Positions 19,690-43,581 of a stretch of 64,000 bases of DNA are shown in pieces. A program made the translations under genes and the position numbers. Source of the DNA: Mobula birostris. Lineage: Eukaryota. The stretch covers positions 19,726,630 to 19,790,629 of the forward strand of contig NC_092397.1 of assembly GCF_030028105.1 (NCBI RefSeq), written 5' to 3'. The notes beneath the pieces are model-generated. The model made no database searches and was not told where the DNA came from. It saw only the letters and a list, made by a program, of their open reading frames with translations. Each line of letters begins with the position of its first letter. Positions within the stretch are counted from its first letter, which is position 1.

Positions 19690-19835
19690 AATCAGCAAGT
19701 CAGGCAGCATCAATGGTGAGAATAAACATCGACATTTCGGGTCGAGACCCTTCATCAGGACTCTGATGGGAGATGCTGCCTGACTTGCTGGGTTCCTCCA
19801 GCATTTTGTCCGCGTTGTCGCGATTCCCAGAATCT
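19690..19835. mobile_element. Penelope-derived palindromic short insert
   Basis: Perfect 19-bp inverted repeat (19693-19711 / 19772-19790) around a hammerhead-like core; same family as 30866, 32135, 35190 and 40840. Confidence 0.75.
19727..19763 (-). ncRNA. Minimal type I hammerhead ribozyme motif (Penelope-associated)
   Basis: Minus strand reads gagtc-CUGAUGA-a-GGGUCucGACCC-GAAA-u-GUC-gaug: both core boxes, stem II and the GUC cleavage triplet are present. Confidence 0.6.
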
Positions 19836-19959
19836 CTTGGCATTATACTGACACATTGTTCACCTCTGCACCTTCAGAGGCCTGTACTGCTGTCAGAATA
19901 AAACGACAGGTTCCTCGTCATATAACACGGTGATAAATCTAATTCTGATTCCAAGGATT

Positions 19960-22900
19960 AAAGGACAAAGGACATTGTCTGGCCAAACTCTCTGTGTAAC
20001 TGAGAACCTCGGGTCCGGGAAACATCCTTGGAAATCTTTTCTACACTCTCCCCAGTTTAACCCCGTTTCCTAGAACAGTGATAAGAGCTGCACACAATAC
20101 GGCAAGTGTGGCCGCCAGTCACTTCCACAACTGTAACATAATGTCGCAACTGATATATTCTATCCCCTGACTAATGAACGCCAGCATGTGAAACCCCGTT
20201 CTTCACCACCCTGTCTACCAGTGACACAACTTTCAATGAACTGTGTGTACACTTTACCGCTAAATCTCTCCGGCCCATTCCAGTCCCCAATGACCGATCT
20301 TTCATAGTGTAAGTTCTACACTGGTTTGACTTTCCAATATGCACCGCCTCACACTTATCTGTATTGAAATGCATTTGCCACACTTGACCCTCTTCCCTAA
20401 ATGAGCACGATCACCCTGTAATCAGCGACAACCTACCAAGTAAAGTTGAGGGAAGTTATTCCAACTCATTAATAAACCTTTTGTGCACTGGCATTGATCA
20501 GTGAAGGTGATTAGTATCAAAATCAAGTTCATTATCACGGACATATGTCATTAACTTTGTTGTTTTGCTACAGCAGTACAGAGCAATTTCTAAAAAAGTT
20601 AAAATAAGAAATATATAATAAACAGTGTAAAAAGAGGATCAGGGAGGGGTGTGAGTCCGAAGATGAGAATAGGAAACCTAAACCTTGTCCATTCTTGCCT
20701 CTTTTACTCTTCATATATCTGAAAATAAATCTTTTTGTATCTTGTTTCTATTATTGGCCAGTTACTTTCATAATTCATCTGACTTCTGCATCTTGCTATT
20801 TTAGTTGTGCTCTTTTCTTTTTTTAAGTTTCATTATCCTTTAGCTTCCCAGTAATTTTGGTGATATTCTTTGCCCTCTCATGTTCTTTTATGCTGCCTTT
20901 GTCTTCTGTTGTTAGTGATGGTTGCCTCATCCTCCCTTTCAAATACTGTTTCTGCTGAGGGATGAACCGATCCTGTGTCTGCCAAATTTCTCCTGGAGAC
21001 TGAAACTTTTCATACAAGGTAATCTGAGGAAGTTGAAATGCCCAACTGCTGTAAGCTTGTTCCCATTACCCCTCTGTGTGATTTACCAAGATGTCTGCTG
21101 CACAATATCTGAGCCAATTGGGAGGCTGGTAGTATAATCCCATCAAAATCATCATTCATCATTTTATTTAAAACCTATACTTACAAGACCTCATCAAAAC
21201 CCCTCTTATTACTGCAACACACATCAAAGTTGCTGGTGAATGCAGCAGGCCAGGTAGCATCTCTAGGAAGAGGTACAGCAACCTTGATGTGTGTTGCTTG
21301 GATTTCCAGCATCTGCAGAATTCCTCATGTTTACCCTCTTATTACTGCAGTGTTGGTCTCCTTAATCAAAGATGCAACATCCCCAACTCGTAAGGTAGCT
21401 TTTAAATGTTTGCCCTTCACCTTAAACAATTACCCTGTAAATTTAGGCTTCCCTACCCTGACACAAAGGACAGTCACCAGACGGCTCCTTACTCTCTCAG
21501 GAGAGAGAAAGAGAGTCCCAGTCTGTCCAAGTTTCTGCTGATAATTAAGGTCCTCCAGTGTCAGTAACATCCTCATCAAACTTCCCTCCACACTTTCCAG
21601 CTTCATGACATCCTTCCTGCAACTGGATGATCAGAACTGTGCAAAATACAGTGTGGTCTCACTTTGACTTTTACGGTTGTCATACAGCATCCCAAATTCT
21701 CTACTCGGTTCCCTGATTAATGAACACAAATAGGCCAAACACCACCTTCACCATCCTGACTACCTGTGTTGTCACTTTCAGTGAATGATGTTTCTGTATT
21801 TCATGGACCCTCTGTTCTGTAATACTTACTCTCCAAGGGACAAGAATTTACTGTGCAGATCCTTCCCGAGTTGAACCTCTCGTAATGCAACACCTCACAC
21901 TTGTCCACGTCAATATCCTTCTGCCATTCTTTGGCCGACTTCCCCAGTTAATCTCGATCCCATTGTACTCTCAAAGAATCTTCCCTGTCCACTCTACCAT
22001 CAACATTGCTGTCATCCGCAAACTCACTAATCACATTAAGTACAATGTCAGAGAAATTGTTAACATCGATGACAAATGACAGTATGAGCACCGATCCCTG
22101 TGACTGTCACTGGTCAGAGGCCTCCAACCTGAATAACAAGCTGCCATGACCACCCTCTGACTCCTTCCACCAAGACAAGTATCTTGTCTGGCATCCCCTC
22201 TGCTCTAAATGTGTAATACAAAAGAAATAAAGATTAAATCAAAATATATCTACCTACGGCCTACATCTCTCAGAAGAGACGAAACCTCAACTCCTCACTC
22301 CAATTCTGTCCCACTCATACAATGACCGCTCTGTTTAAATCTAACTTCTTTTTATTGGATCTTGCCACCTTCCAAATTACGGGCAATCAAAAGTTTCCTT
22401 GGGAATTGTGACATGCAAAATGTGCCAACTGCCCAGGTTCACTTCATCAAACTCCCTCTCCCTTTACATAATCTGATAACTGTGTGGGACTGTGGCACTC
22501 AAAACTGTGGACTACAGGAAACCATGCCTGCACTGTTCTACAAGGCCACAAATGATTAAAAAAAACACTGTATAACAAACACTGGAATTCCCTAATTGAG
22601 ATGAATAGGGAGACGGGGTAACTGAAAAGATTCAAACAGAAGGAAGGTAAATGTTTGTAAAATCAGGGAAGTAAGATTGACATACAAGGAAGGCTGATGG
22701 CAGATCAGCCTTTATATGGAATTGTGGGTGAGGGATTAAGAGAGGACACACTGGAGGGTTCATCCAGTGAGACAATGTGGATGGAGCTCAGGATAAGAGA
22801 GGTGCATTCACTGATGGGATTATACCACAGGCCTCCCAAATGCCAGCAGGAGATAAAGGAACAGAAATGTAGCAGGTAATGAAAGATGTAAAAGCAACAG

Positions 22901-25900
22901 GGTAGTTGCAGTGGGTGATAAATTTCCCCAATGTTGACTGGGACTCCCTTAGAGTCAGGGGCTTAGATATCACCAAATATGTTAGAAGAATACTGGGATG
23001 TTACTTAACATAGAAGTGGATAGTCTAACCTGGGAAGGGGGTCAGAGAAAACATTGTATTGGGAAATGAGCCTGGCCATTGATAGAAGTTTCATTTTGGG
23101 AACGGTAAATAAGGACAAGACTGGACCCGGTGGTAATGTGGTCATTTGGGGTACAGTTAATTGCAACTGTCTACATTGAACATGTAAATGATGTTTAAAA
23201 GCAATCGGGTCAGAATTCAGACAGAACTGTTTCTATGAGGAGGAAACACAAGGATGGTAAGGTCTGGCAGAGGGGCATAGTGAGAGATGTTATGAATTCA
23301 GACTGAAAGAAAATGAAGAATAAGGAATATTTCAGAAGTAGAAATTGGAGAAGGCCTCTGGCAACATGAAACAAGTAAGAGAGAAGTTAGAGAGAGAATC
23401 AGAAGTGTGAAACGGGAAGAAGAAATAACTTTGGTGAGAAGGGGCACTGCGGAGAGGGTACGACAACACAAGCACAGAGGAGAGAATTTATGTCTGAAGT
23501 GTGCGAGGGACTAAACCAGTACTTCTCATCAGTATTCATCAGTGTGGTCATGGAGGATAGTGAGATCAGAGAAGGGAATGCTGATATTCCAGGGCATGTT
23601 GTTCCTCAGGCAATGGAGACAAATTACAGATTGGTGAGTCTTGGATCAATGTTCGGGAAATTATTCGAGAATATTATTAGAGATAGGATCTCTAATAAAA
23701 GTTAGGAGGGTAAAAGGAGGATATCATGAGTCAGAAGGCAAAGTGAGCAAAATCCAAGAGATTCTCTTGGTATATTCATAGGGCAAGGTAAGTTAGACAC
23801 AGAATCGTTCTCCTTGGAGGTGAACATGGCCATCTGTGTGTGGAGGCAAATGAAATAGGAGAGGCTATCCACGAATATTTCTGACAGTTATTTCACCATT
23901 GCAAAAATTCTTTAAGGTTGTTAAATCTCCAGGGCCTTATCAGGTACATTCTCGTACTTTGTGGGAAGCTGGAGAATACACTGTGGAGGCCAGGGGAGAG
24001 ATTATTTTGCTTCATCTCAGGCACCAGTTGAGGTTGCACATGATTGGACAGGGTGACTAATGTGGAATTGATAGTTTTGAGGCCAAGACTGTGGATGATA
24101 TGAAGAGACAGGCAGTGTTGAGGAAGCAGGGAGTCTGCAGTAGCACTTGACAGATTTAGAGAATGGACAAGGAAGTGCCAGATAAAATACAGCGTAAGGA
24201 AGTGTGTGGTCATGTACTCTGGTAGGAGGAATAACAGCCTAGGCTCTTTCTAATCAGGGAGAGAACAGAAATCAGTTGTGTGAAGGGTCTTAGTGCACGA
24301 TTCCCTAAAGGTTAATGTACACATTGAGTTGGTAGTGAGGAAGGCAAATGTAATACTTGCATGCATTTCAAGAGAACTAGAAAATAAAAACAAGGATCTA
24401 ATGCTGAGGCTTTGGTCAGACCTTATTTGGAGTATCATGAGCAGGGTTGGGTAACTTTTCTAAGAAAGGACGTGCTGGCATTGCAGAGGCTGTAGTGGAA
24501 ATTCACGAGAATGATCCCAGGACTGAAAGAGTTAGGATATAATAATCATTTGATAATCTGGGCCTGTACTCACTGGAGTCTAGAAGAATGAGGGAGAATC
24601 TTATAGAAACACATTGAATATTGAACGGCCTAGATAGCATTGATGTGAGAGGATGTTTCCAATAATGGAGGAATCTAGAACCAAACCACACCATCAATAA
24701 AAAGATGCCCCTCTAGAATAGAGATGAGTAATTTCTTTAGTCAGAAGGTGATGAATCAATGGATTTCATTTCCACAGGCAGCCATAAAGGCAGTCAGTGG
24801 GTTTATTTAAAGCAGAGGTTAGTAGATTTTTAATTATTATTAAGGGTATCAAAGTTTATGGGTAGAAGGCAGGAGAATGGGGTTGAGAGGGATATATGAT
24901 GGAATGGCAGAACAGACTGAATGGGCCAAAAGGCCTAATCCTGCTCCTGTGACTTCAGGACTGATGGTTTATGCGGTGCCATTGTTCAAAAAGGGTAGTG
25001 GAAACTACAGGCCCATCAGTCTGTAATTTGTTGGAAGAGTTTCTGATGAACAGGATCCACCAAAATTTGGTTTGATTCAAGACAGTCAGCACAGTTTTGT
25101 GCAAGGAAAATTATGTCTGGTAATTTCTTGCAGCCCTTTGAGGGGTTTCACAAGGACGTAGATGAGGTTAGGGCTGTGGATGTTGTCTATATGGACATTA
25201 GCCAGGCCTTTGACTATAGTCTGGAAGGTTAGATCTAGAAACTGGAATCTGGGGAGATAGTTGATTGATTCCATAATTGCCTCCGTGACAGGAGGCAGAG
25301 GCTGATGGTTGAGGGTTGTGTCTCAGACTGGAGCTGTCTGTCTAGTGGTGTGCCACTGGGTGACAGGACCTTTGTTGTTTGCAATTTATATAAATAATGT
25401 CCATGTGAATGTGTAATTCACTGAAAGTGACGTCTCAGCTAGATACGGTGGTGAAGATGGGGTTTGATCTGCTGGCTTTCATCATTCATGTCACTGAGTA
25501 CAAGAGTTGGGAAGAAGTGTTGCAGATACACAAGTCTTCGGTGAGGACTGATTAAAGGAAACCATGCTGACTTTGGCCTATTTTTTCATGTGTTGCCAAG
25601 TACCCGAAAATACATCCTTGACAATTGACTCCATCATCTTCCCAACCATTGAGATCAGACTAGCTGGCCTACGATTTGCTTTCTTCTGCTCTCCTCTCTT
25701 CTTTAAGAGTGGATGACCTTTGCAATTTTCCTGTTCTGTGGAACCACACCAGAATCCAGAGATTATGGGAAGATTATTACTAAAACTGCCACAATCTCTT
25801 CAGCCACATCTTTCATAGAACTGGTGTAGATAATCTGGTCCAAGTGAATTCTCTACCTTCAGACCTTTCAGTTTCTCAAGGACCATCTCCCTAGTAAAGG

Positions 25901-28003
25901 CAAAATCACTCATTTCTGCCCCCTGATTCTCTTGAATTTCCAGCAGACTGCTAATATCGTCCCCAGTGAAGACTGATGCACAATACTTATTCAGTTTGTC
26001 TGCCATTTTCCTGTACCCCATTACTACCTCTCCAGTAACATCTTCCAATGAACCAATATCTACTTTTGCCTCTCTTTTACACTTTGTATATCTGAAGAAA
26101 CTTTTGGTATCCTCTTTAATACCAGTGGCTAGCTTACCTTTGTATTCCAACTTTTCCCTCTCTTCATGACTTTTTTTGTTGGTTTTAAAAGTTGTAAATA
26201 CTCTGAGAGTCAGGGACATCTCGGAGCAGATACAGAACAGGGGGATGGTGTTCATTCAGCCAGAGATGGTGATTCACATCAGTACCAATGGACAGGTAGA
26301 AAAGGGATGATGTCCCACAGGGAGTTAGGGAAGAAGTTATGGAGCAGAACCTGAAATGTTGTAATCTCCAGTTTACTCCTAGTGCCCTGTGGTGGTAGGG
26401 ATACAAACAGAAAGTGAGAGCTGATGAATGTGTGGCTAAGGAGCTGATACAGGGACAGGGTTTCAGGATTACGGAACATTGGAACCTCTTCTGGTGCTGG
26501 GGTGACATTTACAAGAGGGATGGTTTGCAGTTTCACTGGAGGGCAGTCAGGATCATGAGGTTCATTGCTGCTCCCTATGAGGGTTGAAACGAGATTGACA
26601 GGGGGATGTGAAACAGAACACCAGTCACTGAACGGAGAGATTGAAGCTGAGTTAGATGCCAGGCACAGCAATATGTAACGATGGATTTTGAGGCAAATCC
26701 ACATCTGACCTGGAGTTTGTTTAAAGACCAGTGCAGTGTTTCAGGGCCAGTTTTTTCCAGTAAGAGGGAGGGTCAAGGATGGCAAGGTTCAGGAACCTTG
26801 GATGATGAGACAGGAAGTTAATTTAATCAAGGAGGAGGAAGAAGCATAAGTAAGGCTTAGGAATCTGTAATCAAACAGGGTGTTTGAGGACTATATTTAA
26901 AAAATAGGGGAACTCAAGAACATTCGGAGAGCTGGAAACACTGATGAAAAATCTCCGGCAAGTAGGATTGAAGATAATCCCATTGCATTCCATACATTCG
27001 TTGTGGTGAAAAGGATACCTAGGGCTGCACTTTGGGAGATCCAACATCAAGGGTGTGTACACAGTTAATGGCAGGAACATTAACAGTATTAACAAAGAGA
27101 AGGATGTCGAGGTTCAGAGATATTGGCTCCCTAAAACTGGAAGCACAGGTTGACAGGGAGGTAAAGTTGGTGTATGGTATGTTTACCTTCATCAGGCAAG
27201 GCACTGAGTTCAAGCCCCAGGACATGATGTTACAGGTTTATAAAATGCTGGTTAGGCCACATTGAGAGTATCGTGTTCAGTTCTGATCACCTCAATATAG
27301 GAAGCATGTGGAGGGTTTGGAGCAGGATGTCTGGAGGAGGTGTGCACTGAGGAGAGGCTCGACATGCTGAAACTTTTTGCTTCTGGAGTGGCGTCGGCTC
27401 AGGAGAGATTTGATAGATACCTGTGGAATTTTGTGGTCATGGTTGGTGTAGACAGCCAGTAATATTTTTCACAGAAGGCATGTATTTAAGCTCAGAGGAA
27501 GAAAGTGAAGACAACAGATTGATGGAGACATGGAATGCACTGCCAGGGGTGGTGGCAGAGGCAGAGAGCACAGGAGTATTTAAGGAAATCTTAGACAGTC
27601 ACAAGAATATGTAGAGAAGGGCCAAAGGGCCACTCCTGTACTGTCCTTTGTTCTTTGAACAGCAGATGGCCTCTGGGCATGGATCCGTGCAGGAGACTGG
27701 GATATTATATCCCCAACACAAAAATGGTTGTCGGAGGGGCAGGACCGGCAGCTCAGTTTCACAGTACAAATGCTACAGGTACGATGGAGTGGAGGGGAGA
27801 GAAGAGAAGGCGGAGATGTGTTTGACCAGAGAGAACATCTCAGTGGTACTTAGAGAAGACATCCCTGGGGGTTGCCGCATCATGTATACTGGGACCGCCG
27901 CACTGCAAAAGGGTTGGTGGCGCAGAATTTATTCTGTGCGTCCAGTTTTATCAATCAGTATTTAGAAGTTCCTACTAGAGACAGGACAGCACTGAACCTC
28001 CTT
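19960..28003. mobile_element. Tract of nested, decayed CR1 fragments
   Basis: Recurrent degraded motifs (WQMHFNTDKC, GLYHRPP, LNKYCASVFT, MLQVYKMLVRPH, PTRDRTALNL) in both orientations. Confidence 0.75.
21217..21333. mobile_element. Penelope-derived short insert with 16-bp TSD
   Basis: ccctcttattactgca at 21201-21216 and 21334-21349 flanks a fold-back fragment of the family. Confidence 0.7.
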
Positions 28004-28009
28004 GTCGAT

Positions 28010-28090
28010 CCACCCACTCCCTCCCTTTTCTTCCTGGCACAAACAAAAGTCTGTATCAGAGCGACCCACCGCCTCACAGAGGGAGCCGTG
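28010..28090 (+). pseudogene. Orphan H4-type 3' end with degenerate stem-loop
   Basis: gcacaaacaaaagtctgtatcagagcgacccaccgcctcacagagggagccgt aligns with the H4 3' flank gcacaaaacaaaggctcttctaagagccacccaccgcctcacagacggagctgt; no CDS upstream. Confidence 0.75.
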
Positions 28091-28615
28091 TCTCGGGAGA
28101 TCTGACCAAACTGACCCTTTCTTTGCAAATGTTCATTTATATTTCAGAGACCCAGGCGGACGAGATTTTCAGTAAATACTGTCAGTTCCATATGGTAAAT
28201 GTACTTTTGTAGATAAATGTAAAGCTGCAAATCAATATTGTTCTGTGAAGCGATGGGAATTGCTCATGAAGCGATCAGCGGAACGGTCCAGGGTCAACCC
28301 GCAATGTGAAACCCAGACAACGCGGTTTCAGGTCATGAAGACCAGAATCGTTCAATGATTGGAGATTAAATTCACCCTCCGGGGGCTGACTCTGAAAGTT
28401 CATTTCCCCACCCCGCAAGGGGAGAGAGCTCCATTCAGCCAGCAGAGAGGGGAAATGAGTCAGGGCGGAGCGGACCGCGTACTGTGCAGACTTATACCGG
28501 TTTAATTCGCGGAAGAAACACGACGGAAGGAGAGAAAACGTTACCAGGGATGCCTCCGATCGGGGCCGTGTCAGATACACAGCCGAGTTACTACGAACGG
28601 CAATCACCCGCTGTT

Positions 28616-28656
28616 CAGCCCTTCCACAGACACTGTGAGTGGCTCTGAAAAGAGCC
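28616..28656 (-). terminator. Histone 3' stem-loop and HDE of H2A
   Basis: GGCTCTTTTCAGAGCC on minus (28641-28656); GGAAGGGCTG (28616-28625). Confidence 0.95.
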
Positions 28657-28686
28657 TTTGGATAAATAGGTCCAGCTTACGTCGCC

Positions 28687-29330
<644 letters not shown>

Positions 29331-29894: not shown

Positions 29895-29925
29895 GTTGTG
29901 TTTTCGATCATCTCACTGGGGAGCT

Positions 29926-30300
29926 TTACTTGGAGCTGGTGTACTTGGTCACCGCCTTTGTCCCTTCGGAAACGGCGTGCTTGGCCAGCTCCCCGGGCAG
30001 CAGCAGGCGCACAGCGGTCTGGATCTCCCGTGAGGTGATGGTTGACCGCTTGTTGTAATGGGCCAGGCGGGAAGCCTCGCCCCCGATGCGCTCGAAGATG
30101 TCGTTGACGAATGAGTTCATGATGCTCATGGCCTTAGAGGAGATGCCAGTATCGGGGTGAACCTGCTTCATCACTTTGTAGATGTAGATAGAGTAACTCT
30201 CCTTCCTCAGCCTCTTGCGCTTCTTCCCTGCCTTACCTGCTGGTTTGGGCAGAGTTTTCTTGGCGCCCTTCTTCGGAGCGGGTTTCGCTGTCTCAGGCAT
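29926..30300 (-). CDS. H2B: Histone H2B (copy 1)
   Basis: 124 aa with [14 protein letters not shown]...AVTKYTSSK. Confidence 0.99.
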
Positions 30301-30353
30301 TTCCGCTGACCGCTACAGACCCACAAATAAGCAAAACGGGCTCGGAGCACGAA

Positions 30354-30484: not shown

Positions 30485-30865
30485 CAGAACTCGTTCTGCA
30501 CTACCCAGTGTTCGTTTTGGGTAACACCGTGGACAGGGACCTGTCGCCGATCTGGTGAGTTGCCGCTGCGGTTAATTCCGCAGGAAGGAAATCTAAAATA
30601 CAAAATGGACCAACTACAGCGGCAGTATTCGGTCATTCGGCCCGTCGTATCTGCTAGAAAAGCAGATGGAATAAGAAAAACACACAGTTGATAATATGAA
30701 ACGTTTATGTAATGAAACAGGACAGCAGGAGACCGAAGGTCAAATGGACCGGGTGAAAGATAAATTTACTGCAGCAGCATCATAAACACATAGTATCCAC
30801 GATACAGTGCTCACAAGAACTAAACTGCTGTACAGAATTGTAAAAAGAGAAGATAATTAGCAGTT

Positions 30866-30966
30866 AGTCCTGACGAAGGGTCTCGGCCCAAAACGTCGAC
30901 TGTACCTCTTTCCCAGAGATGCTGCCTGGCCTGCTGCGTTCACCAGCAACTTTGATGTGTGTTGCA
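30866..30966 (+). mobile_element. Penelope-derived insert with hammerhead motif (GAAA mutated to AAAA)
   Basis: agtc-CTGACGA-agggtctcggccc-AAAA-CGTC-gact. Confidence 0.7.
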
Positions 30967-31090
30967 GAGAATTTGAATTATCTCAAGACAGTCCATTGTA
31001 GTGTAAATTGATCAAAGTGGTGCTGTCTTGAGGTGGGGAGGAGCGTTGTTCGGGTTTGTTAAAGTACGTAATGTCTGTACATTACGTACA

Positions 31091-31721
31091 GGGTTCATTC
31101 TGTACCTGTCAGTCTCTGGTACAGTGTGAGAGTGTGGGGTTCATTCTGTACCTGTCAGTCTCTGGTAGTATGAGAGTGTGGGGTTCATTCTGTACCCGTC
31201 AGTCTCTGGTACAGTGTGAGAGTGTGGGGTTCATTCTGTACCCGTCAGTCTCTGGTACAGTATGAGAGTGTGGGGTTCATTCTGTACCCGTCAGTCTCTG
31301 GTACAGTGTGGGAGTGTGGGGTTCATTCTGTACCCGTCAGTCTCTGGTACAGTATGAGAGTGTGGGGTTCATTCTGTACCCGTCAGTCTCTGGTACAGTG
31401 TGAGAGTGTGGGGTTAATTCTGTACCCGTCAGTCTCTGGTACAGTGTGAGAGTGTGGGGTTCATTCTGTACCCGTCAGTCTTTGGTACAGTGTGAGAGTG
31501 TGGGGTTCATTCTGTCACCGTCAGTCTCTGGTACAGTGTGAGAGTGTGGGGTTCATTCTGTACCCGTCAGTCTCTGGTACAGTGTGAGAGTGTGGGGTTC
31601 ATTCTGTACCCGTCAGTCTCTGGTACAGTGTGAGAGTGTGGGGTTCATTCTCTACCTGTCAGTTTCCGGTACAGTGTGAGGTTCATTCTGTACCTGTCAG
31701 TTTCCGGTACAGTGTGGGAGT
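31091..31721. repeat. 46-bp minisatellite, about 13-14 copies
   Basis: Unit gggttcattctgtacccgtcagtctctggtacagtgtgagagtgtg. Confidence 0.95.
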
Positions 31722-31836
31722 TGGTACTTGGCACTGTGTCTCCCAGTCTCTCATGCAATGTAAATGTAGAAACTTCTTTCAGATTCATCCTCACAATTGA
31801 ATTCTTTTTAGCTTTTTAAACAATATCACACAATGC

Positions 31837-32268
31837 GATGTGGCCACACATTTGTTGGAGGTACAACACCTTATGGGTGGCTTCCAACCTGACAGCATGA
31901 ACATCGAACGCTCGCATTTCTGGTAATGCCTCCCACCCCCCCCCCCTTCACCATTTCCCATCATCTTGCCCACCCACCATCTCCCTCTGGTGCTCCTCCC
32001 CCCTTTTCTTTCTTCCATGGCCTCCTGTCTCTTTCACTAATCAACTTTCCAGCCCCCTACACGTTTCACACTCACCTTATTTTCTCTCTCCCCTTCCCCA
32101 CCTTTTAAATCTACTCCTCAGATTTTCTCCTAAGTCCTGCCGAAGGGTTTTGTCCCAAAACAGTGGCTGTGTTTTTTTCCTATAGATGCTGCCTGACCCG
32201 CTGAGTTTGTTCAGCATTTGTGTGTGTGGCTTGGATTTCCAGCAACTGTAGATTTTCTCCTGTTTGTG
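31837..32268 (+). mobile_element. Penelope-like element 3' fragment
   Basis: Degenerate GIY-YIG C-terminus (caacctgacagcatgaacatc), pyrimidine-rich UTR and degenerate hammerhead; flanks acacaatgc at 31828-31836 and 32269-32277. Confidence 0.7.
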
Positions 32269-33553
32269 ACACAATGCTGTACATCGGTATATCAGGGATG
32301 ATGTATCTGGTTACGTTGTACTAATCTGAATGGACTTTGGAGCAGAGCATCCAGAGCAACAAGTCCAGACCATTGAATCCAACTCTGGTCTTGTGATAAA
32401 TGTGTAACTTTCCTCGAGTCTCGGTGTGGGAGGGTTTGAATGGTGTGTATTGTGTAGCAACATTTGAACTGATGGAATTGAGAATGATTTTGACTGTAGA
32501 TATGTAACCAGTGTGTCCACAGTGATCAGTGATGGGACCTTTGTTTGATCAGATTAAAACACACATGGGCTGATCAGATCGCTGATGACATGAATATTGG
32601 TGCAGTTGTGGGTGGCGAGGAAGGTTGTCAAATGGACAGAAGTGGATATAGATCAATTGGAATCATGGATGGAGAAATGGGGGAAATGGATTTTAATCTG
32701 GACAAGTGTGAGGAGTTTTACAGGTAAAATGTCGTAAGAAACTCCACAGTAAATGGCAGCACCCTTAGGAGCACTAATACACGAGAGAACTTTATGTGTT
32801 TCTCTGTATTATCTTGCAAGTGTCACTAAAAGGAAGTAAACTACTCTAAAGATCACAGAGGGGGAGCAGTAAGAGGATCCAGTGGGGGGTGGGGTCGCTG
32901 TAGGGTAATGTCATGGCTGGAAATGTGCGTAATTAATGACCACTGACATTCTGTTGTGTTTCTCTTTTCGAAGCTGGACTGCTGTTATGATGTAAGTATG
33001 TGAAGTTTTTTTTTAAACTGTGCTTTATGTTTCTGTATTTGGAGGACAATAAATGAGTTGTTATGGTTTTCCTGAAACAGAAAATGCCTCATGCCATTTT
33101 ATTTGTAAAAGCCTTCACACTGCAAGAATACCACAGTGTCAATCTGCACCAAGAAAACCTGATCACATTCTCTTGAGGGTTAATGGCATTGCTGACTCTG
33201 AATTTACTGCCGTCGAATGCCAGCAGGGTCACAATCAGCAGAAACTCTCACAAAGCAGCTCTGTTTGTATTGTGTGCTTAGTAGGTCTGTGGGAGATACC
33301 CAGACTGTGAAGCTATAGTAATGGAGAGAGACACACTGAGCCAAGTCACAGCTTGATGGGCAGAGAGGAAAACAGAGAATTTGATGTTGTGTCCTTATGC
33401 CTGAACTATGCCCAGTTAGAAGTGTTGTTCCTCCAGACAGTGTTCAGGCTCACTGTAACAGTGTGACATCAGACATCAACATGAAAACTAAAATAATCTC
33501 AGCTGAGATATATTCTCTTTCACCTGTTGATCATCTTTGCAAACATTTTACAG

Positions 33554-34135
33554 GCAGAAAAGGCAAAGAATTTCTGTCTGAGAATCTCAAATGCAACAGC
33601 ATGTCACTTCTGTTGTGTCAGTCAGTTCCCCAGCATTTGAATGCTACCAATCACTGAATATGAAGGGGGAGATGGTTGAGAAGACAGCACACCAGAGTCC
33701 CAATACGTGGACTTGTCCATGGACTGACCTGATAAATGGCCATAGAGTTGATACCAGTGAGTTGGCGTTCACCGCCTCTCATTTTGGAAGGGATTCACCA
33801 GGCCACTGCACCTGCAGATACACCAGCAAGTTCACACGGGGAGAGGCCATTCACCTGCTCCATGGCGGACGGGATTCATTCAGTCACATGAGCTATTACA
33901 ACACCAGCCAGTTCACACCGGTGAGCAGCTAGACTTGGCTCTGTTGTCTCTGTCTCTCAGTATAGCTTCACACCTGTTCCAAGTGTGGGAGGAGATTCAT
34001 TCAGTTCACCCACCGTGTGAGGCTCCAGTGAGTTTACAATTCATAGAGGACACACTTCTGTCCTGAGTCAGCAAAGAAATTTACTCAAGTCATCCCACCT
34101 GCTGAAACACCAGCAACTTCACATCAGGGAGGAAG
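33554..34135 (+). pseudogene. C2H2 zinc-finger pseudo-exon
   Basis: caccagcaagttcacacggggagaggccattcacctgc corresponds to HQQVHTGERPFTC (frameshifted); further degenerate fingers with stops; acceptor-like ttttacag ending at 33553. Confidence 0.7.
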
Positions 34136-34914
34136 TTATAATAAGCTGTATATGGGACTGTTAATGTCAGATTCCACAGATCTTGTGGCTGCTCATCAGA
34201 CCCAGGACTGAACCCTGGTTACTGAGCATTGAGGGGGTTCATCCCACCATCTTAAAATACACTGATGTTTAATATTGTGGATCTGTCATAGACAAATACA
34301 TCAATTCCATTTCAAATCCTGTATCTCAGGTGCTTCCTCCCTGTCACACCGATAATGAACAGTCGAGAGGCCACTCAGTCCAGCTGCTACCTGCTTGTGT
34401 TCCTATTGCACACCAGAGCTTTCAACCCCATCCCTGCCGTTCACCACTAACTCACCCTATAATGTTCAGGATGTAACTGGTCACCGGTCTGGCGATGAAG
34501 AGGTTTACCTTGAATTCACTCCACGACTTTCTGTAAACTGCAGAGGATTAATTTACTGTGGTTTTCTCCCAAATATTCCTCATCCCTCACAGCTCTGGAC
34601 CAAGGCTGAAATCTTGTGTTGTTAAAATCTTCCTGTCCCGCTCTATTCATTGTTTTGTGTCATTTTCACTGATTTCGAAGGGCTGTGCCTCACATTGCTG
34701 GGCTGTTGCAATACAACACTCTCCTCTAAAGTACGACAGCAGAATGGTGGAGCAGAAACAAGAGGGGTCAGCACAAATGAGGGCTTTGGAGCTCCAGATG
34801 TGATGGAGGCTCGAGTTTACGTAGAGTAGGAGGGAATCAGACCAGGAGGATGAGGCTGCAAATGGAAGTTCAGCAACTTTTGGAAACTGATTGACTGAAA
34901 AAAGAGGTTTATGT

Positions 34915-35712
34915 TTGCAAAATACTGGAGGGACTCAGTGCCCCCCAGCGGCATCTGTGCAGACAAATAAATAGTTGATATTATGGGCCAAGACACTTCA
35001 TCCTATCTAGACTGTTTATTCCTCTGTTCAGCTGCTGCCTGACCTGCTGAGTTCCCGCAGTACTTTGTGTGTGTCACTTCAGAGTTTATTCCCAGCATCT
35101 GCTGAACCTCGAGTTTCATATCCGCATTTCTAAATGAGTGGGACTGTGACAGTTGTCATACAAAATGCTTGTTGACATTGTGTAATAAACAGGAGAAAAT
35201 CTGCAGATGCTGGAAATCCAAGGAACACACACAACATGCTGGAGAAACTCTGCAGGCCAGGCACCATCTGTGGATAAAAGTACAGCTGACGTTTTGGGCC
35301 GAGATTCTTCAGCAGGACTGGAGAAAAAACAATGAGGAGTAAATTTTAAAGGTGGGGAGGGGAGAGAGAAACACAAAGTGACAGGTGGAACTGGGAGGGG
35401 GAAGGATGAAGTAAAGAGCTGGGAAGTTGTTTGGTGAAAGAGATACAGGGCTGGAGAAGGGGGAATCTGACAGGAGAGAACAGAAGGCCGTGGATGAAAG
35501 AAAAGGGGGGAGGAACACCAGAGGGAGGCGATGGGCAGGCAATGAGAGGGAAAGGGGGATTGGGAATGATGAGCGAGGGGAGGCATGACTGGAAGATCAA
35601 GAAGTCGCTGTTCATGCCATCAGATTGGAGGCTGCCCAGATAGAATACAAGGTGTTGTTCCTCCTACCTGAGTGTGGCCTCATTGCGACAGTATACGAGG
35701 CCATGGATTGAC
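34915..35712 (-). mobile_element. Two adjacent Penelope-like fragments
   Basis: Minus-strand EEQHLVFYLGSLQSDGMN (GIY-YIG C-terminus) at ~35610-35665; degenerate hammerhead 35283-35320; fold-back copy 34915-35105. Confidence 0.7.
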
Positions 35713-35719
35713 GTCTCCA

Positions 35720-37565
35720 TTGAGTACACTGTTTGTGGAAGCTTGCTGTGTTCAAGTAGCTGCTGAGTTTTCTGCATAAAATCATTGACTGATTTTGAAA
35801 CATGTGGCGTGGAACCAGCACTTGCCCCTCAAATTAATCCAGTCTGTTAACAACAGCACATCACCTCCCTTTTCCAAAATACAATTCAACCACACTATCA
35901 CCATCCATTCCGTAAGTTTACACAAATGGGACGTCAGTGATATTGGTCTATAACTAGGAGGATCCATCAGGGGTTTCCCAGGTTTTAGAATAGACAGTAC
36001 AATTGCCATTTTCCATGAGGAGAGAAGATGGCCTGAACTCCAATTATGATTTTAAAAATGTAATATTATCTCAAGAGAGTTGTTGACCATATGTTTAAAC
36101 ATGCAATAACATGTATCATCCTTTCCTGGAGCCGTCTGACCTGTACTATAAATAGCTTTCTTAAATTCACACAAAGAAACTCTACATCACTAATACTATC
36201 ATTGCTACAGCTGGTTTCCAACACATTAAGGTATTCTTGTAAAACCTTATTGCTACATTGTTTAGTCTCTCCACCTATTTTAATTATGAATTGCAGCAAA
36301 TGACCAAGCCAGGACTCAACCGTCTCTCCTTCAGGAACAATTGTATTACCTTCTTTAATCAATATTCAGAACCCTATGAATCCCACACCCCCATTTTCTT
36401 AGTCATTCCCCAAACATCTTCAAGTTTAATAGTCCTTCCAATACTTTCACAATATGACCTCCAGTAAATCTTTTTCACAAGCTTCATTACTTTCCTCACC
36501 ACGGCCTGTGACCTGTTACACTTAATATGATCACGCGGAGAGTGATACTTAACTTTCCGAAATGCCACGTTTCTCTCAGTAACTGCCTCTGCACACTCCT
36601 CCGTCCACCACGGTACAGCTTTTCTCCCACTACTGCACTTTTTAAATTGAATCTCTGCCACCACTATTTGATGAATAATGTCACAACGTTTCTTTGCAGA
36701 AATCCACATCATCCTCACCATTCAGCCCAGACACTCAGCACATAAAACATTCAAACTTCTCCCAATTTGCTTTACCAGAGCTCCACCTCCTAAAAGTGGC
36801 CTCATGCCCCCCTATATAAATCCAAACTCAAGCTTATAAACATAGGAAAACGATCACTCCCCAATGCTTCATCTCCCATGACATCCCACTACTCACTCCA
36901 ATGTTCAAAACTAAAGTTAAATTTACAGCATTTTCAGAACTATTATGAACATTAAATCTTGTACCTCTCCCACCATAAAGACTAACAGGATATGAAATAT
37001 CTGAAACTCTTCTATAAACAAAATATCACCAATCTGAGAACAACCCCACAGTGAACTAACTATGTGTTAAAATCCCCACACCATACAACGCTTAGTGAGC
37101 TAGAGCTACATATACTCTCCAACAAATCAATCGGGAGCTTTCCACAATGGTTATAATAAGACACAAACACGAGGAAATCTGCAGATGCTGGAATTTCAAG
37201 CAACACGCATAAAAGTTGCTGGTGAACGCAGCAGGCCAGGCAGCATCTCTAGGAAGAGGTACAGTCGACGTTATAATAATATACCACTTTATTGCCCCTA
37301 CCTGTGGAATCAAATGTGTCTTCAAATGCCTCATACATTTCATTTACATCCACAACTCTATGCCCTCTCCCTCTCTTTAAAAAAAAACTTGCAACACCAC
37401 CTCCTCTACCAACTAATCTATCACGCTTAATTACAATATAACACTGGAAGGAAGAACTTAAATGTGGTAACAAATCAGGTTTCCTGATACATATAACATC
37501 ACATAGATTTGATAAATCAGAAATACATTTGAAGTCTTGCCCATTAGAAATCAGGCTTCTGGAAA
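35720..37565 (-). mobile_element. I/Nimb-like LINE ORF2 fragment (APE to start of RT), decayed
   Basis: RSLISNGQDFK, DVICI, GRGGGVA, VPWWTEEC and KPGKPLMDPPSYRPISLTSHLCKL motifs. Confidence 0.7.
37160..37269 (-). mobile_element. Penelope-derived short insert with 10-bp TSD
   Basis: gttataataa at 37150-37159 and 37270-37279. Confidence 0.75.
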
Positions 37566-37569
37566 TCAC

Positions 37570-37780
37570 CCTTCTGATGCAGGCGGGGCGCGGGCGGTGC
37601 GGAATGTAGTGGGACGTTTATGATTGGTGAAACAGTGCCTGATCTGATTGGAAAGAGCAAATACTCCAATCACAGAGCTGCCTTATTCACCAATCAAGAG
37701 ACAGCAACTGTAAAAGCGCGGAAAATACCGTCTAACCGCCGAAATAAACTGAAATTTGCAAAACACCGCCAAAAAAGCCT
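37570..37780 (-). pseudogene. Orphan H2A-type promoter (H2A CDS absent)
   Basis: Four CCAAT boxes and gccttattcaccaatcaagag, colinear with 29171-29330; homology to the H2A-H2B spacer continues toward H2B copy 2. Confidence 0.75.
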
Positions 37781-38342
37781 TTGTTGCTGAAATTAAACCA
37801 CAACAGGTTTGTTTGTCGGCTCTTTACCCCCGTTACTGGAGTCCGACACACTTAAACAAAGTGTAGTTAATATTGCGATGGTGTCTGGGACATTAGTTCA
37901 CCGATATCTTTCAATTGATAAACGATTGGAATAAAACCGATTCTCAGCTGCTGTTCGCGGTCGGTCATTGTGTAAACTCAAGTCAGTTTAGCAACGGGTC
38001 GCCCGGCAGAAAGTGGAGCTTTAACAAATGCTCTGAACGACCCGTGACAGTATTCAGCTCTCGCGTCGGAATGGGGTTAAGAGAAGTATCCAAAATGGGA
38101 CAAAGCTTAATGAACCCACGGTAATTAAACCAGAAACATTAGCGTCCATGTCAGAGAAATCTGATGACCGAGAGGAAGCGACGGGGAAAGGGGTGTGTAA
38201 CGATTCCGTGCCTGGGCAGTTGGCAGGAATTAACAGAGAAATTGGGATTATACTGAGCAGCGGACAGCAAATTCTGATTAACGGGAATAAGATTCTGAAT
38301 GAGCAATTCCAAATTTACCTCAATTCCATGTCTCAACATCGT

Positions 38343-38384
38343 GTAACTCTTTTAATGAAACCGTGAGTGGCTCTTAAAAGAGCC
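38343..38384 (-). terminator. Histone 3' stem-loop and HDE of H2B copy 2
   Basis: GGCTCTTTTAAGAGCC on minus (38369-38384); AAAAGAGTTAC downstream. Confidence 0.95.
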
Positions 38385-38421
38385 TTTGATTTTCCGGTTT
38401 GTTTTGTCAGTGAACTTGTCT

Positions 38422-38796
38422 TCACTTGGAGCTGGTGTACTTGGTCACCGCCTTTGTCCCTTCGGACACGGCGTGCTTGGCCAGCTCCCCGGGCAGCAGC
38501 AGGCGCACGGCGGTCTGGATCTCCCGGGAGCTGATGGTGGACCGCTTGTTGTAATGGGCCAGGCGGGAAGCCTCGCCCGCGATGCGCTCGAAAATATCGT
38601 TGACGAATGAATTCATGATGCTCATGGCCTTGGAGGAGATGCCGGTGTCGGGGTGAACCTGCTTCATCACTTTGTAGATGTAGATGGCGTAAGTCTCCTT
38701 CCTCGACCTCTTGCGCTTCTTGCCAGTCTTGCTCGCTGGCTTGGACAAAGCTTTCTTGGCGCCCTTCTTGGGAGCGGGTTTCGCTGGATCCGGCAT
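38422..38796 (-). CDS. H2B: Histone H2B (copy 2)
   Basis: 124 aa from the ATG at 38794-38796 ([11 protein letters not shown]...YTSSK). Confidence 0.99.
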
Positions 38797-38848
38797 TTCC
38801 TCGTCGGTTTCAAACACAATAATAAGCAGAAGCTGTTCGGAGCGCGGA

Positions 38849-38960
38849 TTAAATAGGCAGCGCCCAAAGCGGTATGTTAATGAGGATGGGAATACTGAGC
38901 ATTTCTATTGGCTGTTTGGAGAAATGAATCACCAATCGGAACGGCGCCAATGGGCGGGGT
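38849..38960 (-). promoter_or_regulatory. H2B copy 2 promoter
   Basis: TATTTAA 38849-38855; CTCATTAACATAC variant H2B box (octamer 38874-38881); CCAAT boxes; GC box. Confidence 0.75.
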
Positions 38961-40204
38961 TTACCGCTGTCGTTTGATGCGGGAGGAAGTACTGAAGGGC
39001 AGAGACAGGCCGGGCTGCGGGCTGAAATTGAAAAGGGAAACGCAATTTCAAAAGCCGAATGAAAATAAAATCAGATGAAATATTGTAAAATTAAACACTA
39101 GGACATTTAGTTCATGACATAGGGCTGCAGGAGAGTGAAGGAGAGATTTGGACATTTCAGTGTAAAGTTTAAATCGAGTTTATTTATGCACAGGTGAAAG
39201 GAACAAAGTATTTGTAGCAGCATCACAGACACATTGCATCAGAGACACAACACTGACAAGGAACACTGATATTAAATATGAATTATACCAAAATATTCAA
39301 ACAGACAGAAGACTATCAGAACAAAATCAAAATAACAAACAGATTATGCCGGCAGTGGGAGAATCATCCCTCTTGTGCTTCTTCATCTCGTCACTCTAGA
39401 TTCAGTGTCACACAACGCTGCCACTTTGATCTGGCCCATGCCTTCATCAACCAAGTCCAACACTTGCCTTTAGTGCATCTTCCCCCCCCCCCCTTACACT
39501 GGTCATCGGGTTTGTGGGGGTGTGCCCAGGGTTAGTTGGGGTGTGTGCCCCCTTGGACCTCAGAATTAGGTTTGAGGGTAGGGCTGGTGGATGTATATGT
39601 GGGGCTGGGAGAGATAAGGCTGTGGAGTTTAGTATGGTGAGATAGGTGGGGCTATGGTGGATAGGGTAATGTAGTGGAGTCACTTCAATCTGGCCCATTC
39701 CCTTCATTAATGTGGCCTGACACCACTTGGCTTAATGAACCGGGTGTTGCAAAGGGACACATCATCAGTAAAGCAACCTGGGGTCATTGAGTGTTTTGGG
39801 TCTTTAATCATGAGACATCCTCGCCCAGACAACCCAGCCAGGGTTAATCAGGCCCGCTTGTGTTTATCCCATGGATCAAGGTAACGAGAGGCATGTAATT
39901 CTGCATGTTGTGGGTATTTTAGACCTTGTTACTTGGCTTTATTTTGACCATTTGGGGAGTAGAATGTTCTGAGGCCTAGTAATCAGGCTTTACCTCCAAG
40001 TAAGGTTCAACTTTCCTACTTTCAATTTAGAATTGTCTTTATTTTGCATCTGTATGCCTGGGATTGCATGGGTTAAATTAACAGTGTTCACTGCAGTACA
40101 AATTAGTGATTAGGGCTGTGCAGATTGGTCCATAATTCCAAAATGCAAACATCTCTGAAATCCAGATTTTTTTGTGCTGACATGACATCACAAATGGAGA
40201 ATTT

Positions 40205-42700
40205 TACTCAGGATTAAATGGCTTGCCTAATGAAGAGAGTTTCACGGCTCTGGGCCTCTATTCACTGGAACTTCGAAGAAAGAAGGGTTACCAAATTGAA
40301 ACCTATCAAATAGTGAAAGGGCTTGATTGAGTGGATGTGGAGAGGATTTTTCCTGTGATGGGTGTGTCTAAAACTGGACCACACAGCTTCAAAATAGAGG
40401 GTCATCCTTTGAGAATGGAAATGAGGAGGAATTTCTTCAGCCACAGAGTGGTGAATCTGTGATTTTTTTTGCTACAGGCAGCTGTGGAGGCCAAATCACT
40501 GGGTATAGGCAGAGATTGATAGATTCTTGATTGGTCAGGGCATGAAGGGATACAATGGAAGGCAGGAGACTGCCTCTCAGAGGAAAAATTGATCAGTGAT
40601 GATGAAATGCCAGAGAAGGCTCGACAGGCAAAATGGCCGAATTCTGCTCCTGTATCTTATGGTCTTATGGACTCACTTAGTGACTAAATCTCTCCCAGAG
40701 ACTGTTGATCTCAGCTTTGACTCAACCCAGCAACTGAGGCTCCACATTACTTATATAAGGAATACAAAAGTTCTTTGTTCTCTGATTAACAAAACATCTC
40801 ATTTCCATCCTGAATGCTTGTCACCTCATTCTGAGCAACAGACACAAAATGCTGGGGAAAGTCAGCAGGCCAGGCAGCATCTATGGGAAAGAGTAACGAG
40901 TCGATGCTTCGGGCTGAGAATCTTCACCCTGAGATCTGATGAAGTGTCTCGGCCCGAAGTGTCGACTGTTAACTCTTTTTCATAGAGGCTGCCTGTCCTG
41001 CTGAGTTCTTCCAGCATTTTGTGTGTGTTGCGTTTGATTTCCAGCATCAGCAGATTCTCTCGTGTTTGTGATTTACGCCTCATTCTGAGGGTATTTTCCT
41101 CAGTTATGGAGTTCTCATTCAGGGGAAAGATCCTCCTTGCCTATTGCCTGTCATATCCTGAAAGAATCTAACAGATTTCCTCGTTTTCTCATGAACAGCA
41201 GGGAATGCAGACCCAGCCCACTCACTCTCCTCTCGCATAACCAACCTTCCATCCCTGGAACCAGCCCAGTCAGTGTGGGGAACAGTCACTGCACTCCCTC
41301 TATTGCAGGGATATCTTTCCTGAGGAAGTGTGACCAAACCTGGACACGATACTCAAGGTGTGCTCTCACCAGGGCCCCTATATAATCCCAGTGAGACCTC
41401 TGTACTCTCTTGTACAATCCCCGTGGATCACAGGACAAAATACTGTTTGAACATAGAACATAGAATAGTACAGCACAGTACAGGCCCTTCGGCCCACAAT
41501 GTTGTGCCGACCCTCAAACCCTGCCTCCCATATAAATAGAACATAGAATAGTACAGCACAGTACAGGCACTCTCATTACTTGTATCTGCATGTAAACTCA
41601 AGTGATTTGTTTACAAGAATGTCCAGGTCCCTCTGAACATCCTCATGTGGAAATGACTCTGATAGTTTGTTCCTGAGACTGGGTGATCGCACATTTCCCC
41701 ACATTCTGTTCCACCTGCCACATCCTCAACCATTCACTCTCCTGTATACATCCCCCAAACCTTCTCACTACTGTTACCGTCCCTCCCGCTCTGCCACAGC
41801 AGCAGACATAGTCACTGAGTTATGCAGCACAGAAACAGGTCCTTCAGCCCAACACATCCATGCTGACCAAGTGGCCAAACAAAATTATTGTCAGTTGCCT
41901 GCATTTGGCCCATGTCCCTGTGAAACTTCCCTCTCCACAGTCCAAGAGATATTGCAACTGTGCCCACCTACACCACCACTTGGGGTAGTTTGTTCCATGT
42001 AAACAGCACATTCTGTGTACAAAACCTGCTCCTCAGGGTCCTATTTAAATGTTTCCTCTCTCACTTTATATCTGTAATCTCCCGCTTCCAACTCCATAAA
42101 CCTGGAGATAACAGATTCACTGTTGACGGTATCTATGACTGCCATTATTTTATCACCTCTCTAATATCACATACACTCTGGTGAGAAAGGTCCTGGCCTA
42201 TGCAGCGTCCTGTTAAATCCCTTTTGCACCCTCTCCAGTTTAATGTCACCCTCTGATCACATGGCAACTATAATTGCACTTTGTGCTCCGAGAGTAGTTT
42301 CCCCGAGGCTGGTAGAGCTGTAACGTGACGTCACAGTCCAGTGCCCGATACTCTGACCGATGAATGCGAGTGTGGCGAACAGCTTCTTCACCGTCCTGCC
42401 TACCTGTGTTTACACTCTGAAGGAATTCGATATCTGCACCCCGATATCTCTGTTTTACAGCACACCCAGGGACAGACCATTCCCCACGGCAGTTCTGCCC
42501 TGGTTCGTCAATGACAATGGCACATCTCACATTTATCTGTCATTCCTCAAATCAGTGACCTCATTGATCACCGTCCTGTTGTAATGTTAGTTACATTGTT
42601 TCACACTCCACGATATCACCAACTTTAGTGACATCGATAAATTTGCTGAGCCGGGCAGTGACGTTATCAGCCCTGACTCAGCTCCCAGGCTTTTCCTCGC
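40205..42700. mobile_element. Decayed CR1 fragments
   Basis: GLYSLE-type RT end and CR1 3' UTR/tails (catagaacatagaatag at ~41450-41568). Confidence 0.65.
40836..41077. mobile_element. Penelope-derived fold-back insert with 12-bp TSD
   Basis: cctcattctgag at 40824-40835 and 41078-41089; two opposed degenerate hammerheads at its centre. Confidence 0.75.
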
Positions 42701-42884
42701 AGCGATACACGCGCAGTGCTGGAGGAACTCAGCAGGCCAGGCAGCATCTATGAGAAACTGGAAACAGCCAACGTTTCAGGCCGAGACCCTCCATCAGCAT
42801 CTGCACAATGGTCTTGTGTTTGGTTTTCCTTCGATTCTAAGTTACTGGATAACATGACCCATCCTCCAATCCTCTGCCACCACT

Positions 42885-43548: not shown

Positions 43549-43581
43549 TTTGTTTTGTGCTCGGGAGGAAGTGGGAGTTTT

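What the first reader, a model, noticed from the sequence alone, without database searches (positions are those of the whole stretch)
19727..42800. Family of Penelope-derived short inserts carrying minimal hammerhead ribozymes scattered through the histone cluster
Seen: at least seven related sites (19727-, 30866+, 32135+, 34975-, 35283-, 40900/40936 both strands, 42765-) share the consensus (c)agtc-CTGA(T/C)GA-agggtctcggccc-GAAA-C-GTC-gact(g). That is stem I, CUGANGA, stem II, GAAA, a loopless palindromic stem III (ACGU) and a GUC site. Two copies are attached to a GIY-YIG C-terminal remnant. Known: Penelope-like elements carry minimal type I hammerheads thought to cleave as dimers. Inference: this is a non-autonomous, ribozyme-bearing retroelement family. 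Only the 19727-19763 copy keeps both core boxes; it lies ~580 bp upstream of H1 on the same strand.
Basis: partly seen in the sequence, partly recalled or inferred. Interest (0 to 1): 0.7.

Follow-up and report, generated by a model that had tools for sequence, protein, structure and literature searches.

The report
Penelope stubs with decayed minimal hammerheads
These short inserts are leftover end-pieces of a very common Penelope-type jumping gene that carries an already described tiny ribozyme motif (predicted to cut only in pairs); they are no denser near the histone genes than elsewhere, and many start right at the motif, which likely marks where one of the element's RNAs begins.

Summary
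All eight sites are real. They are seven insertions (40900/40936 is one insertion with a 12-bp target-site duplication), and two more were missed (21.2k, 37.2k). They are 5'-truncated, often head-to-head copies of the end repeat (pLTR) of an abundant Penelope-like element that encodes its own RT and GIY-YIG protein; locus L083 holds a complete copy with a 1016-aa frame between two hammerhead motifs 3.5 kb apart. The motif fits the published minimal type I hammerhead of such elements and has 6,161 exact genome-wide matches. Every window copy is damaged; 19727 keeps both core boxes but has a weakened helix III and helix I and lies outside the H1 promoter. Density is the genome average (11 vs 8 expected, P=0.19). 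A separate non-autonomous lineage is not supported: short and long copies share the same variants. One extra feature: many copies begin at the first base of helix I (-31 to -28), not at the cleavage site, often behind an extra G, while 0 of 18 long copies stop there. This likely marks a capped RNA start. The scan noted this family and this start before (33 findings, at least 19 genomes). New member of a known kind.

The parts
19727..19762 (-). Best-kept hammerhead motif of the window: both core boxes, helix II intact; C15.2 changed to U (AUGU), one helix I base deleted; older subfamily
19693..19820 (.). Head-to-head insertion holding the 19727 motif: sense arm on - (blast 19773-19693, ends at about +38), inverted tail arm on + from 19771; folds as a long hairpin (z -5.4)
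21201..21349 (.). Missed copy: head-to-head tail arms (+3..+67 and +46..+103), no hammerhead, 16-bp target-site duplication at 21201-21216 and 21334-21349
30861..30965 (+). Young stub, -36..+67, 96% identical to L083; G12 changed to A (GAAA box broken)
31837..32268 (+). Older truncated copy: GIY-YIG C-terminal remnant (31837-31920), pyrimidine-rich UTR, motif from 32133 with both boxes broken, tail
34905..35106 (.). Old head-to-head pair; motif arm on - (34973-35002) with both boxes broken, tail arm on + (35030-35106)
35185..35774 (-). Older truncated copy: GIY-YIG C-terminal remnant (35774-35589, 54% aa identity, one stop), UTR, motif 35319-35283 with both boxes broken, tail
37162..37272 (-). 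Missed young stub, -5..+105, truncated inside the motif
40824..41089 (.). One head-to-head insertion carrying both 40900- and 40936+ motif remnants, 12-bp target-site duplication at 40824-40835 and 41078-41089; + arm keeps CUGAUGA but has GAAG
42717..42803 (-). Older stub starting at the motif; A9 changed to G (CUGAUGG), helix I and III damaged
18495..19295 (-). Neighbour, not part of the element: histone H1 frame (ATG 19145) and its proximal promoter-like motifs (about 19220-19295)

Best explanation
The sites are decayed, 5'-truncated copies of the end repeat of an abundant protein-coding Penelope-like retroelement, which carries a minimal hammerhead motif predicted to cut only as a dimer, and the short copies were likely made when the element's reverse transcriptase started inside the RNA leader and ran off a capped RNA start at the first base of the motif. 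Shown: layout of the full element (motif, ATG at +139 from the cleavage C, RT + Cys linker + GIY-YIG, UTR, second motif 3,513 nt on), two 3' ends at about +68 and +103, target-site duplications, head-to-head pairs, a 5'-end peak at -31 to -28. Inferred: target-primed reverse transcription from the two internal start sites as shown for anole Poseidon; a capped transcript starting at A(-31); long copies made from a second, read-through or circular RNA; cleavage by the parent motif. The window copies are most likely inert passengers with no role at the histone genes.
For: Same end lies about 295 nt after the stop of RT/GIY-YIG frames; L083 has inverted pLTR + direct pLTR + 1016-aa frame + second motif; 104 of 104 scored matches to P0001 are 95-100% identical, 5 with a stop. 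6,161 exact motif matches, reversed control 0. 3' ends cluster at +68 and +103, 35 nt apart, like the 30-40-bp PLE tail (PMC8557442) and the two RT starts of PMC11167929. Duplications of 5-16 bp in 17 of 49 simple copies vs 2.3 in shuffles. 5' ends: in the unselected 750 kb 7 of 17 young copies reaching the motif end at -27..-35 and none at +20..-24; genome-wide 535, 334, 313 and 227 copies lose the consensus at -31, -30, -29, -32(purine only), of which 24/30, 21/30, 6/10 and 30/30 inspected are true ends. Base before A(-31): 65 G vs 35 A in the 100 listed, against 16 G vs 33 A two bases downstream (P=2e-4). Copies spanning the tail-ORF junction: 4 of 4 short ones end at -30/-31, 0 of 18 long ones do (P=1.4e-4). 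A(-31) sits in YYANWYY in both subfamilies (sequence; initiator consensus recalled).
Against: No RNA evidence for a start at -31 or a cut at 0. The peak is 4-5 nt broad and 5' junctions often use microhomology with the target, which blurs it. The same AG is preceded by a pyrimidine tract and branch-point-like words, so it also looks like a 3' splice site, as in D. virilis Penelope (PMC4209133). The G excess is modest and counted by eye from listings. One of the 18 long copies is the query locus itself, and short vs long was judged from blast ends. ViennaRNA's best monomer and dimer folds are not the active hammerhead fold (monomer -12.6 vs -8.6 kcal/mol for helix I+II), no compensatory stem changes were seen within the family, and the tail is as conserved as the motif in old copies. 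The youngest intact elements mostly have G10.1-U11.1 instead of the conserved G-C.
Confidence: 0.8

Rival explanations
1. The -31..+68/+103 stubs are a self-propagating SINE-like family: each carries the putative initiator and the RT start sites, is transcribed on its own and is copied in trans by the Penelope protein.
For: Fixed 5' and 3' ends, own target-site duplications, about 35 of 94 tail-bearing alignments in the unselected sample start near the motif without upstream UTR (slightly different cut-offs); long copies never stop at -31, so the stubs come from a different RNA.
Against: No variant separates 86 short from 38 long copies picked by the same pattern, and their haplotype spectra match; mean tail identity to L083 is 0.956 vs 0.955. 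Stubs occur in every age class alongside long copies.
Confidence: 0.15
2. The 5' peak is a copying stall or splice-related boundary, not a transcription start: RT stops at the edge of the pyrimidine tract / 3' splice site or at helix I.
For: Pyrimidine tract + YAG directly upstream in both subfamilies; D. virilis Penelope has an intron ending at helix I (PMC4209133, PMC2377424); broad peak.
Against: No shared upstream exon among truncated copies: flank is target DNA or an inverted arm; a spliced template predicts A or C, not G, before AG (exon-end consensus recalled); a stall should also stop long copies, yet 0 of 18 stop there.
Confidence: 0.25
3. The 19727 copy has been kept as a working ribozyme that cuts read-through RNA upstream of H1.
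For: Only window copy with both boxes; same strand as H1, 582 nt upstream.
Against: Helix III palindrome and helix I are damaged by the usual CpG-type decay, it has no tandem partner, does not fold as a hammerhead (z 0.1), and family density gives one copy per 8 kb anywhere; 19 of 21 descriptor hits in 750 kb of arbitrary DNA are copies of this family with both boxes.
Confidence: 0.03

Closest known systems
Minimal hammerheads (min-HHR) in pLTRs of metazoan Penelope-like elements (Cervera and De la Pena 2014, PMC4209133; Xena, Poseidon, Neptune of fishes, coelacanth, Xenopus)
   Same: Type I, helix I 4-5 bp, unpaired base between A9 and 10.1, no loop 3, palindromic 15.2-16.2, mostly single motifs on truncated copies, some on opposite strands.
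   Different: Helix II only 3-4 bp (7-8 bp in Schistosoma); youngest subfamily has G-U at 10.1-11.1; far more copies (6,161 exact, roughly half a million pieces extrapolated) than the 4,000-9,000 reported for coelacanth and Xenopus; cartilaginous fishes are not named in the sections read.
Endonuclease-positive PLEs of Neptune/Nematis type (Craig et al. 2021, PMC8557442; Arkhipova et al. 2013, PMC3846280)
   Same: Single RT + GIY-YIG frame with Cys-rich linker (C-x4-C-x2-C), partial tandem pLTR, adjacent inverted truncated copy, optional 30-40-bp tail, short target-site duplications, microhomology 5' junctions.
   Different: A strong pile-up of 5' ends at the first base of helix I is not described in the passages read; clade not fixed by a tree here.
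Anole Poseidon PAc (Frangieh et al. 2024, PMC11167929)
   Same: Two internal RT start sites that define the tail; motif just upstream of them; no sign of RNA ends at the cleavage site.
   Different: In PAc the ORF begins inside the hammerhead and RT starts 111-118 nt into the ORF; here both start sites lie before the ATG (+139).
Non-LTR retrozymes (bioRxiv 10.64898/2026.07.22.740005; PMC7229834, listing only)
   Same: PLE-derived, non-coding pieces with a type I hammerhead; reported in one chondrichthyan.
   Different: Retrozymes are head-to-tail arrays of motif-bearing units; the window copies are solitary or head-to-head and show no lineage of their own.

Membership tests
Endonuclease-positive Penelope-like element | Single ORF with RT and C-terminal GIY-YIG | tested here: met
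   L083 1016 aa: GIY-YIG 23.2 bits (cut-off 22.6), RVT_1 E 6e-4 (below cut-off), DKGG and YIDD motifs
Endonuclease-positive Penelope-like element | Direct pLTR in partial tandem and adjacent inverted 5'-truncated copy | tested here: met
   L083, L091 direct; L031, L085-L087, L090 inverted
Endonuclease-positive Penelope-like element | Optional 30-40-bp tail and short target-site duplications | tested here: met
   3' ends +68 and +103; 17 of 49 duplications vs 2.3 null
Neptune clade | CX2-5CxxC linker between RT and endonuclease (shared with Nematis) | tested here: met
   C-x4-C-x2-C at aa 883; feature from PMC8557442
Neptune clade | RT phylogeny grouping with Neptune rather than Nematis | not tested
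   No reference PLE proteins were fetched
Minimal type I hammerhead of PLEs | CUGANGA, GAAA, UH with helix I and II | tested here: met
   Met by the family (N7 is the one freely varying core position in 40 old copies); within the window both boxes only at 19727
Minimal type I hammerhead of PLEs | Extra base between 9 and 10.1; palindromic 15.2-16.2 without loop 3 | tested here: met
   A at -20; ACGU self-complementary; broken to AUGU at 19727
Minimal type I hammerhead of PLEs | G10.1-C11.1 pair | tested here: inconclusive
   G-C in older subfamilies; G-U in most near-full-length young copies
Minimal type I hammerhead of PLEs | Self-cleavage as dimer | not testable with these tools
   Needs a bench assay; predicted lowest-energy folds are not the active fold
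Rfam hammerhead families | Match to a covariance model | tested here: not met
   No hammerhead hit at E<=5 in the window or E<=10 in 6 loci with perfect motifs
Non-LTR retrozyme / independent non-autonomous family | Two or more consecutive head-to-tail units with complete motifs | tested here: not met
   Window copies are solitary or head-to-head; the whole genome was not screened for such arrays
Non-LTR retrozyme / independent non-autonomous family | Own lineage with diagnostic variants | tested here: not met
   86 short vs 38 long copies, no site with P<0.09

The most novel reading that the evidence does not exclude
The stubs are a genomic CAGE record: this Penelope-like element makes a capped RNA that starts exactly at the first base of its hammerhead, its RT binds the leader in cis and runs off the cap (copying it as an extra G), giving more than a hundred thousand 100-135-bp inserts, while full-length copies come only from a second read-through or ribozyme-made circular RNA. 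Two template classes would explain pLTRs, stubs and head-to-head pairs in one mechanism.
Probability: 0.4. Interest if true: 0.45.

Novelty: new member of a known kind. Interest (0 to 1): 0.2.

Why it matters
As found, it is an ordinary passenger: one piece of this element occurs about every 8 kb, so its presence among histone genes carries no information. The family itself is a useful test bed: it is young (intact 1,000-aa frames, 95-97% identical), huge, and its copy ends can be counted genome-wide. If the fixed start at helix I is a capped RNA start and long copies come from another RNA, the open question of which RNA Penelope-like elements copy, and what their hammerhead is for, becomes testable with 5' RACE and one in vitro assay.

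Tried and rejected
Rfam: no hammerhead model matches; miRNA-like hits are only the fold-back of inverted arms. Pfam on four window frames near the remnants: 0 of 4 matched; the link was made by tblastn instead. Histone-cluster enrichment: rejected; no H3/H4 match in 140 kb of flanks. Cleavage footprint: 5' ends at +1 are rare (2 of 118 at risk vs 27 at -31 in the incidental set, which is partly non-independent; 0 of 17 in the unselected set). Spliced-template model: no shared upstream exon. A 2-bp TG duplication from a GIY-YIG stagger: rejected, duplications are 5-16 bp. Allele differences between short and long copies were an artefact of how the two sets were picked; they vanish with equal selection. 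Full-length copies starting at -31, expected if the capped RNA were also their template: 0 of 18. Expression: no RNA holder listed; 4 of the 22 listed runs were laid, all contigs, which cannot show starts, cuts or strand; their joints to 3376 fit older subfamilies with a different UTR. Lunse et al. (PMC5785218) is not held, so it is known here only from its citation in PMC6765202.
Full report
Numbering used throughout: the predicted cleavage nucleotide C17 is 0; the first A of helix I (AGUC) is -31. The window is G000:C33:19726630-19790629 of a 4.0-Gb genome.

Observation. All eight sites align to the stated motif on the stated strands, and only 19735-19758(-) keeps both core boxes. The sites belong to seven insertions: 40900- and 40936+ are two arms of one head-to-head insertion with a 12-bp target-site duplication, and 19727- and 34975- also have inverted arms. 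Two further insertions were missed, at 21201-21349 (16-bp duplication, no motif) and 37162-37272 (cut inside the motif). GIY-YIG C-terminal remnants precede 35283- (E 1e-13) and 32135+ (E 0.003). Copy by copy: 30866 lost G12; 32135, 34975, 35283 and 40900 lost both boxes; 40936 reads GAAG; 42765 lost A9; 19727 has AUGU for the ACGU palindrome and a deleted helix I base. No window copy is intact.

What it is. The 34-nt motif has 6,161 exact matches in the genome and the reversed control has none. In 20 of the first 30 loci the motif continues upstream into a pyrimidine-rich UTR, and in the longest of them into a frame with RT and GIY-YIG residues. Searching with that protein gave 241,962 first-look candidates; the 104 scored are 95-100% identical and 99 have no stop in the match. 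Of 20 stretches fetched around the longer frames, L083 is a complete element: inverted pLTR, direct pLTR with the motif, ATG at +139, a 1016-aa frame, UTR and a second motif 3,513 nt after the first. Pfam gives GIY-YIG above its cut-off and RVT_1 at E 6e-4 below it; a C-x4-C-x2-C linker marks the Neptune/Nematis type (PMC8557442, passages read). 3' ends cluster at +68 and +103, matching the optional 30-40-bp tail of PLEs and the two internal RT starts shown for anole Poseidon (PMC11167929, main text parts 1-2 read). Simple stubs have duplications of 5-16 bp in 17 of 49 cases against 2.3 in shuffled pairings, so they are primary insertions, not erosion products.

No link to histones. 75 arbitrarily placed 10-kb stretches hold 94 tail-bearing alignments (one per 8 kb, about half a million if extrapolated, arms counted apart); the window holds 11 (8.0 expected, P=0.19) and 140 kb of flanks hold 16. 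H1-box, GC-box and TATA-like motifs (names recalled) lie within about 150 nt of the H1 ATG at 19145, so the 19727 insert is outside the H1 transcript and more than 400 nt from the proximal promoter.

The ribozyme. The family motif meets the published min-HHR description: helix I of 4-5 bp, CUGANGA, an unpaired base before 10.1, GAAA, palindromic ACGU without loop (PMC4209133, parts 1-2 of 4 read). In 40 old copies N7 is the one freely varying core position and the bases just after helix I vary by subfamily. Against this: the tail is as conserved as the motif, blast seeding favours conserved columns, no compensatory stem changes appear within the family, the youngest intact elements mostly carry G-U at 10.1-11.1, the lowest-energy monomer and dimer folds are not the active fold, and Rfam has no match. 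That fits published low or protein-assisted activity, but cleavage is untested here.

Non-autonomous family? With equal selection, 86 short and 38 long copies differ at none of 11 polymorphic sites (all P>0.09) and share haplotypes. The strong differences came from sets picked by different queries. The stubs are therefore best read as products of the protein-coding masters; a self-propagating subset is not excluded.

Where copies begin. In the unselected sample 7 of 17 young copies that reach the motif end at -27 to -35 and none between +20 and -24; over all ages 35 of 47 alignments ending at -17 to -45 have no element UTR upstream. Genome-wide, 535 of 6,161 lack A(-31), 334 of 6,495 lack G(-30), 313 of 6,808 lack T(-29), and 227 have a purine at -32; 24/30, 21/30, 6/10 and 30/30 inspected loci are true ends. 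Ends at the cleavage site are rare. The base before A(-31) is G in 65 and A in 35 of the 100 listed matches, against 16 G and 33 A at -29 (counted by eye; P=2e-4), as expected if a cap is copied. Among 30 of 40 matches that span the tail-ORF junction, 8 end before reaching the motif start; of the rest, 4 of 4 short pieces end at -30/-31 and 0 of 18 long elements do (one of the 18 is the query locus). A general stall would hit long copies too, so two RNA classes are the simplest reading: a capped RNA starting at A(-31), inside a YYANWYY word in both subfamilies, and a read-through or circular RNA. The same AG also looks like a 3' splice site, as in D. virilis (PMC4209133; PMC2377424, passages), but no shared upstream exon was seen. 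No RNA run could test this.

Known or new. PLE hammerheads on truncated copies, inverted pairs and tails are published (PMC4209133, PMC8557442, PMC3846280 passages, PMC6765202 passages); a 2026 preprint (parts 1-2 of 5 read) reports PLE-derived retrozymes in one chondrichthyan. Seven searches (listings and abstract starts seen) showed no paper on the fixed start at helix I; subscription journals, supplements, Repbase and Dfam were not seen and may hold this family. The scan's own notes hold 33 findings of this kind in at least 19 genomes, several with the same fixed-start and extra-G reading; they are unchecked notes and agree with what searches had already shown. Verdict: real, a new member of a known kind, no histone role; interest 0.2.

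Noticed in passing
window 1-16602 vs 43483-55589: Large inverted segmental duplication (arms 90-99% identical) around the histone cluster, including two H4 genes (16183-16503 +, 43582-43902 -); shared repeats continue in the flanking loci L038/L039, L040/L041, L048/L049.
   Followed up: no
window 28275-28676 (-) after H2A 28687-29136; H2B 29926-30312 and 38422-38904: Seven histone 3' stem-loops (Rfam RF00032) mark H4 x2, H3, H1, H2A and H2B x2; the two H2B copies differ in N-terminal sequence.
   Followed up: no
window 42862-43054: Third, partial copy of the H4 upstream/promoter region (85-87% to 43945-44137 and 15948-16140) without an H4 frame, next to the 42765 stub.
   Followed up: no
window 31075-31772: 46-bp tandem repeat of about 15 units directly upstream of the 31837 GIY-YIG remnant.
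   Followed up: no
L167 (G000:C13:10000001-10010000): A second minimal-hammerhead-like motif with a different helix I (AGCU/AGCU) and helix II; possibly another PLE family.
   Followed up: no
L051-L100: The youngest, near-intact elements mostly have U at 11.1 (G-U pair), a subfamily-wide change at a conserved hammerhead position.
   Followed up: partly
L002 motif: With C at N7 the core GACG can pair with CGUC at the cleavage site, giving an inactive fold 4 kcal/mol more stable than helix I+II alone.
   Followed up: partly
L183, L191, L193 junctions: Short GAAGGG pieces from inside the motif are added in front of the -30 end, as if the cDNA re-primed on the second GTC of the motif after reaching the template end.
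   Followed up: no
L081, L082, L085, L091, L096: In-frame 210-bp tandem duplication in the Pro/Ser-rich N-terminal part of the ORF, present in some intact copies and absent in L083 and L084.
   Followed up: no
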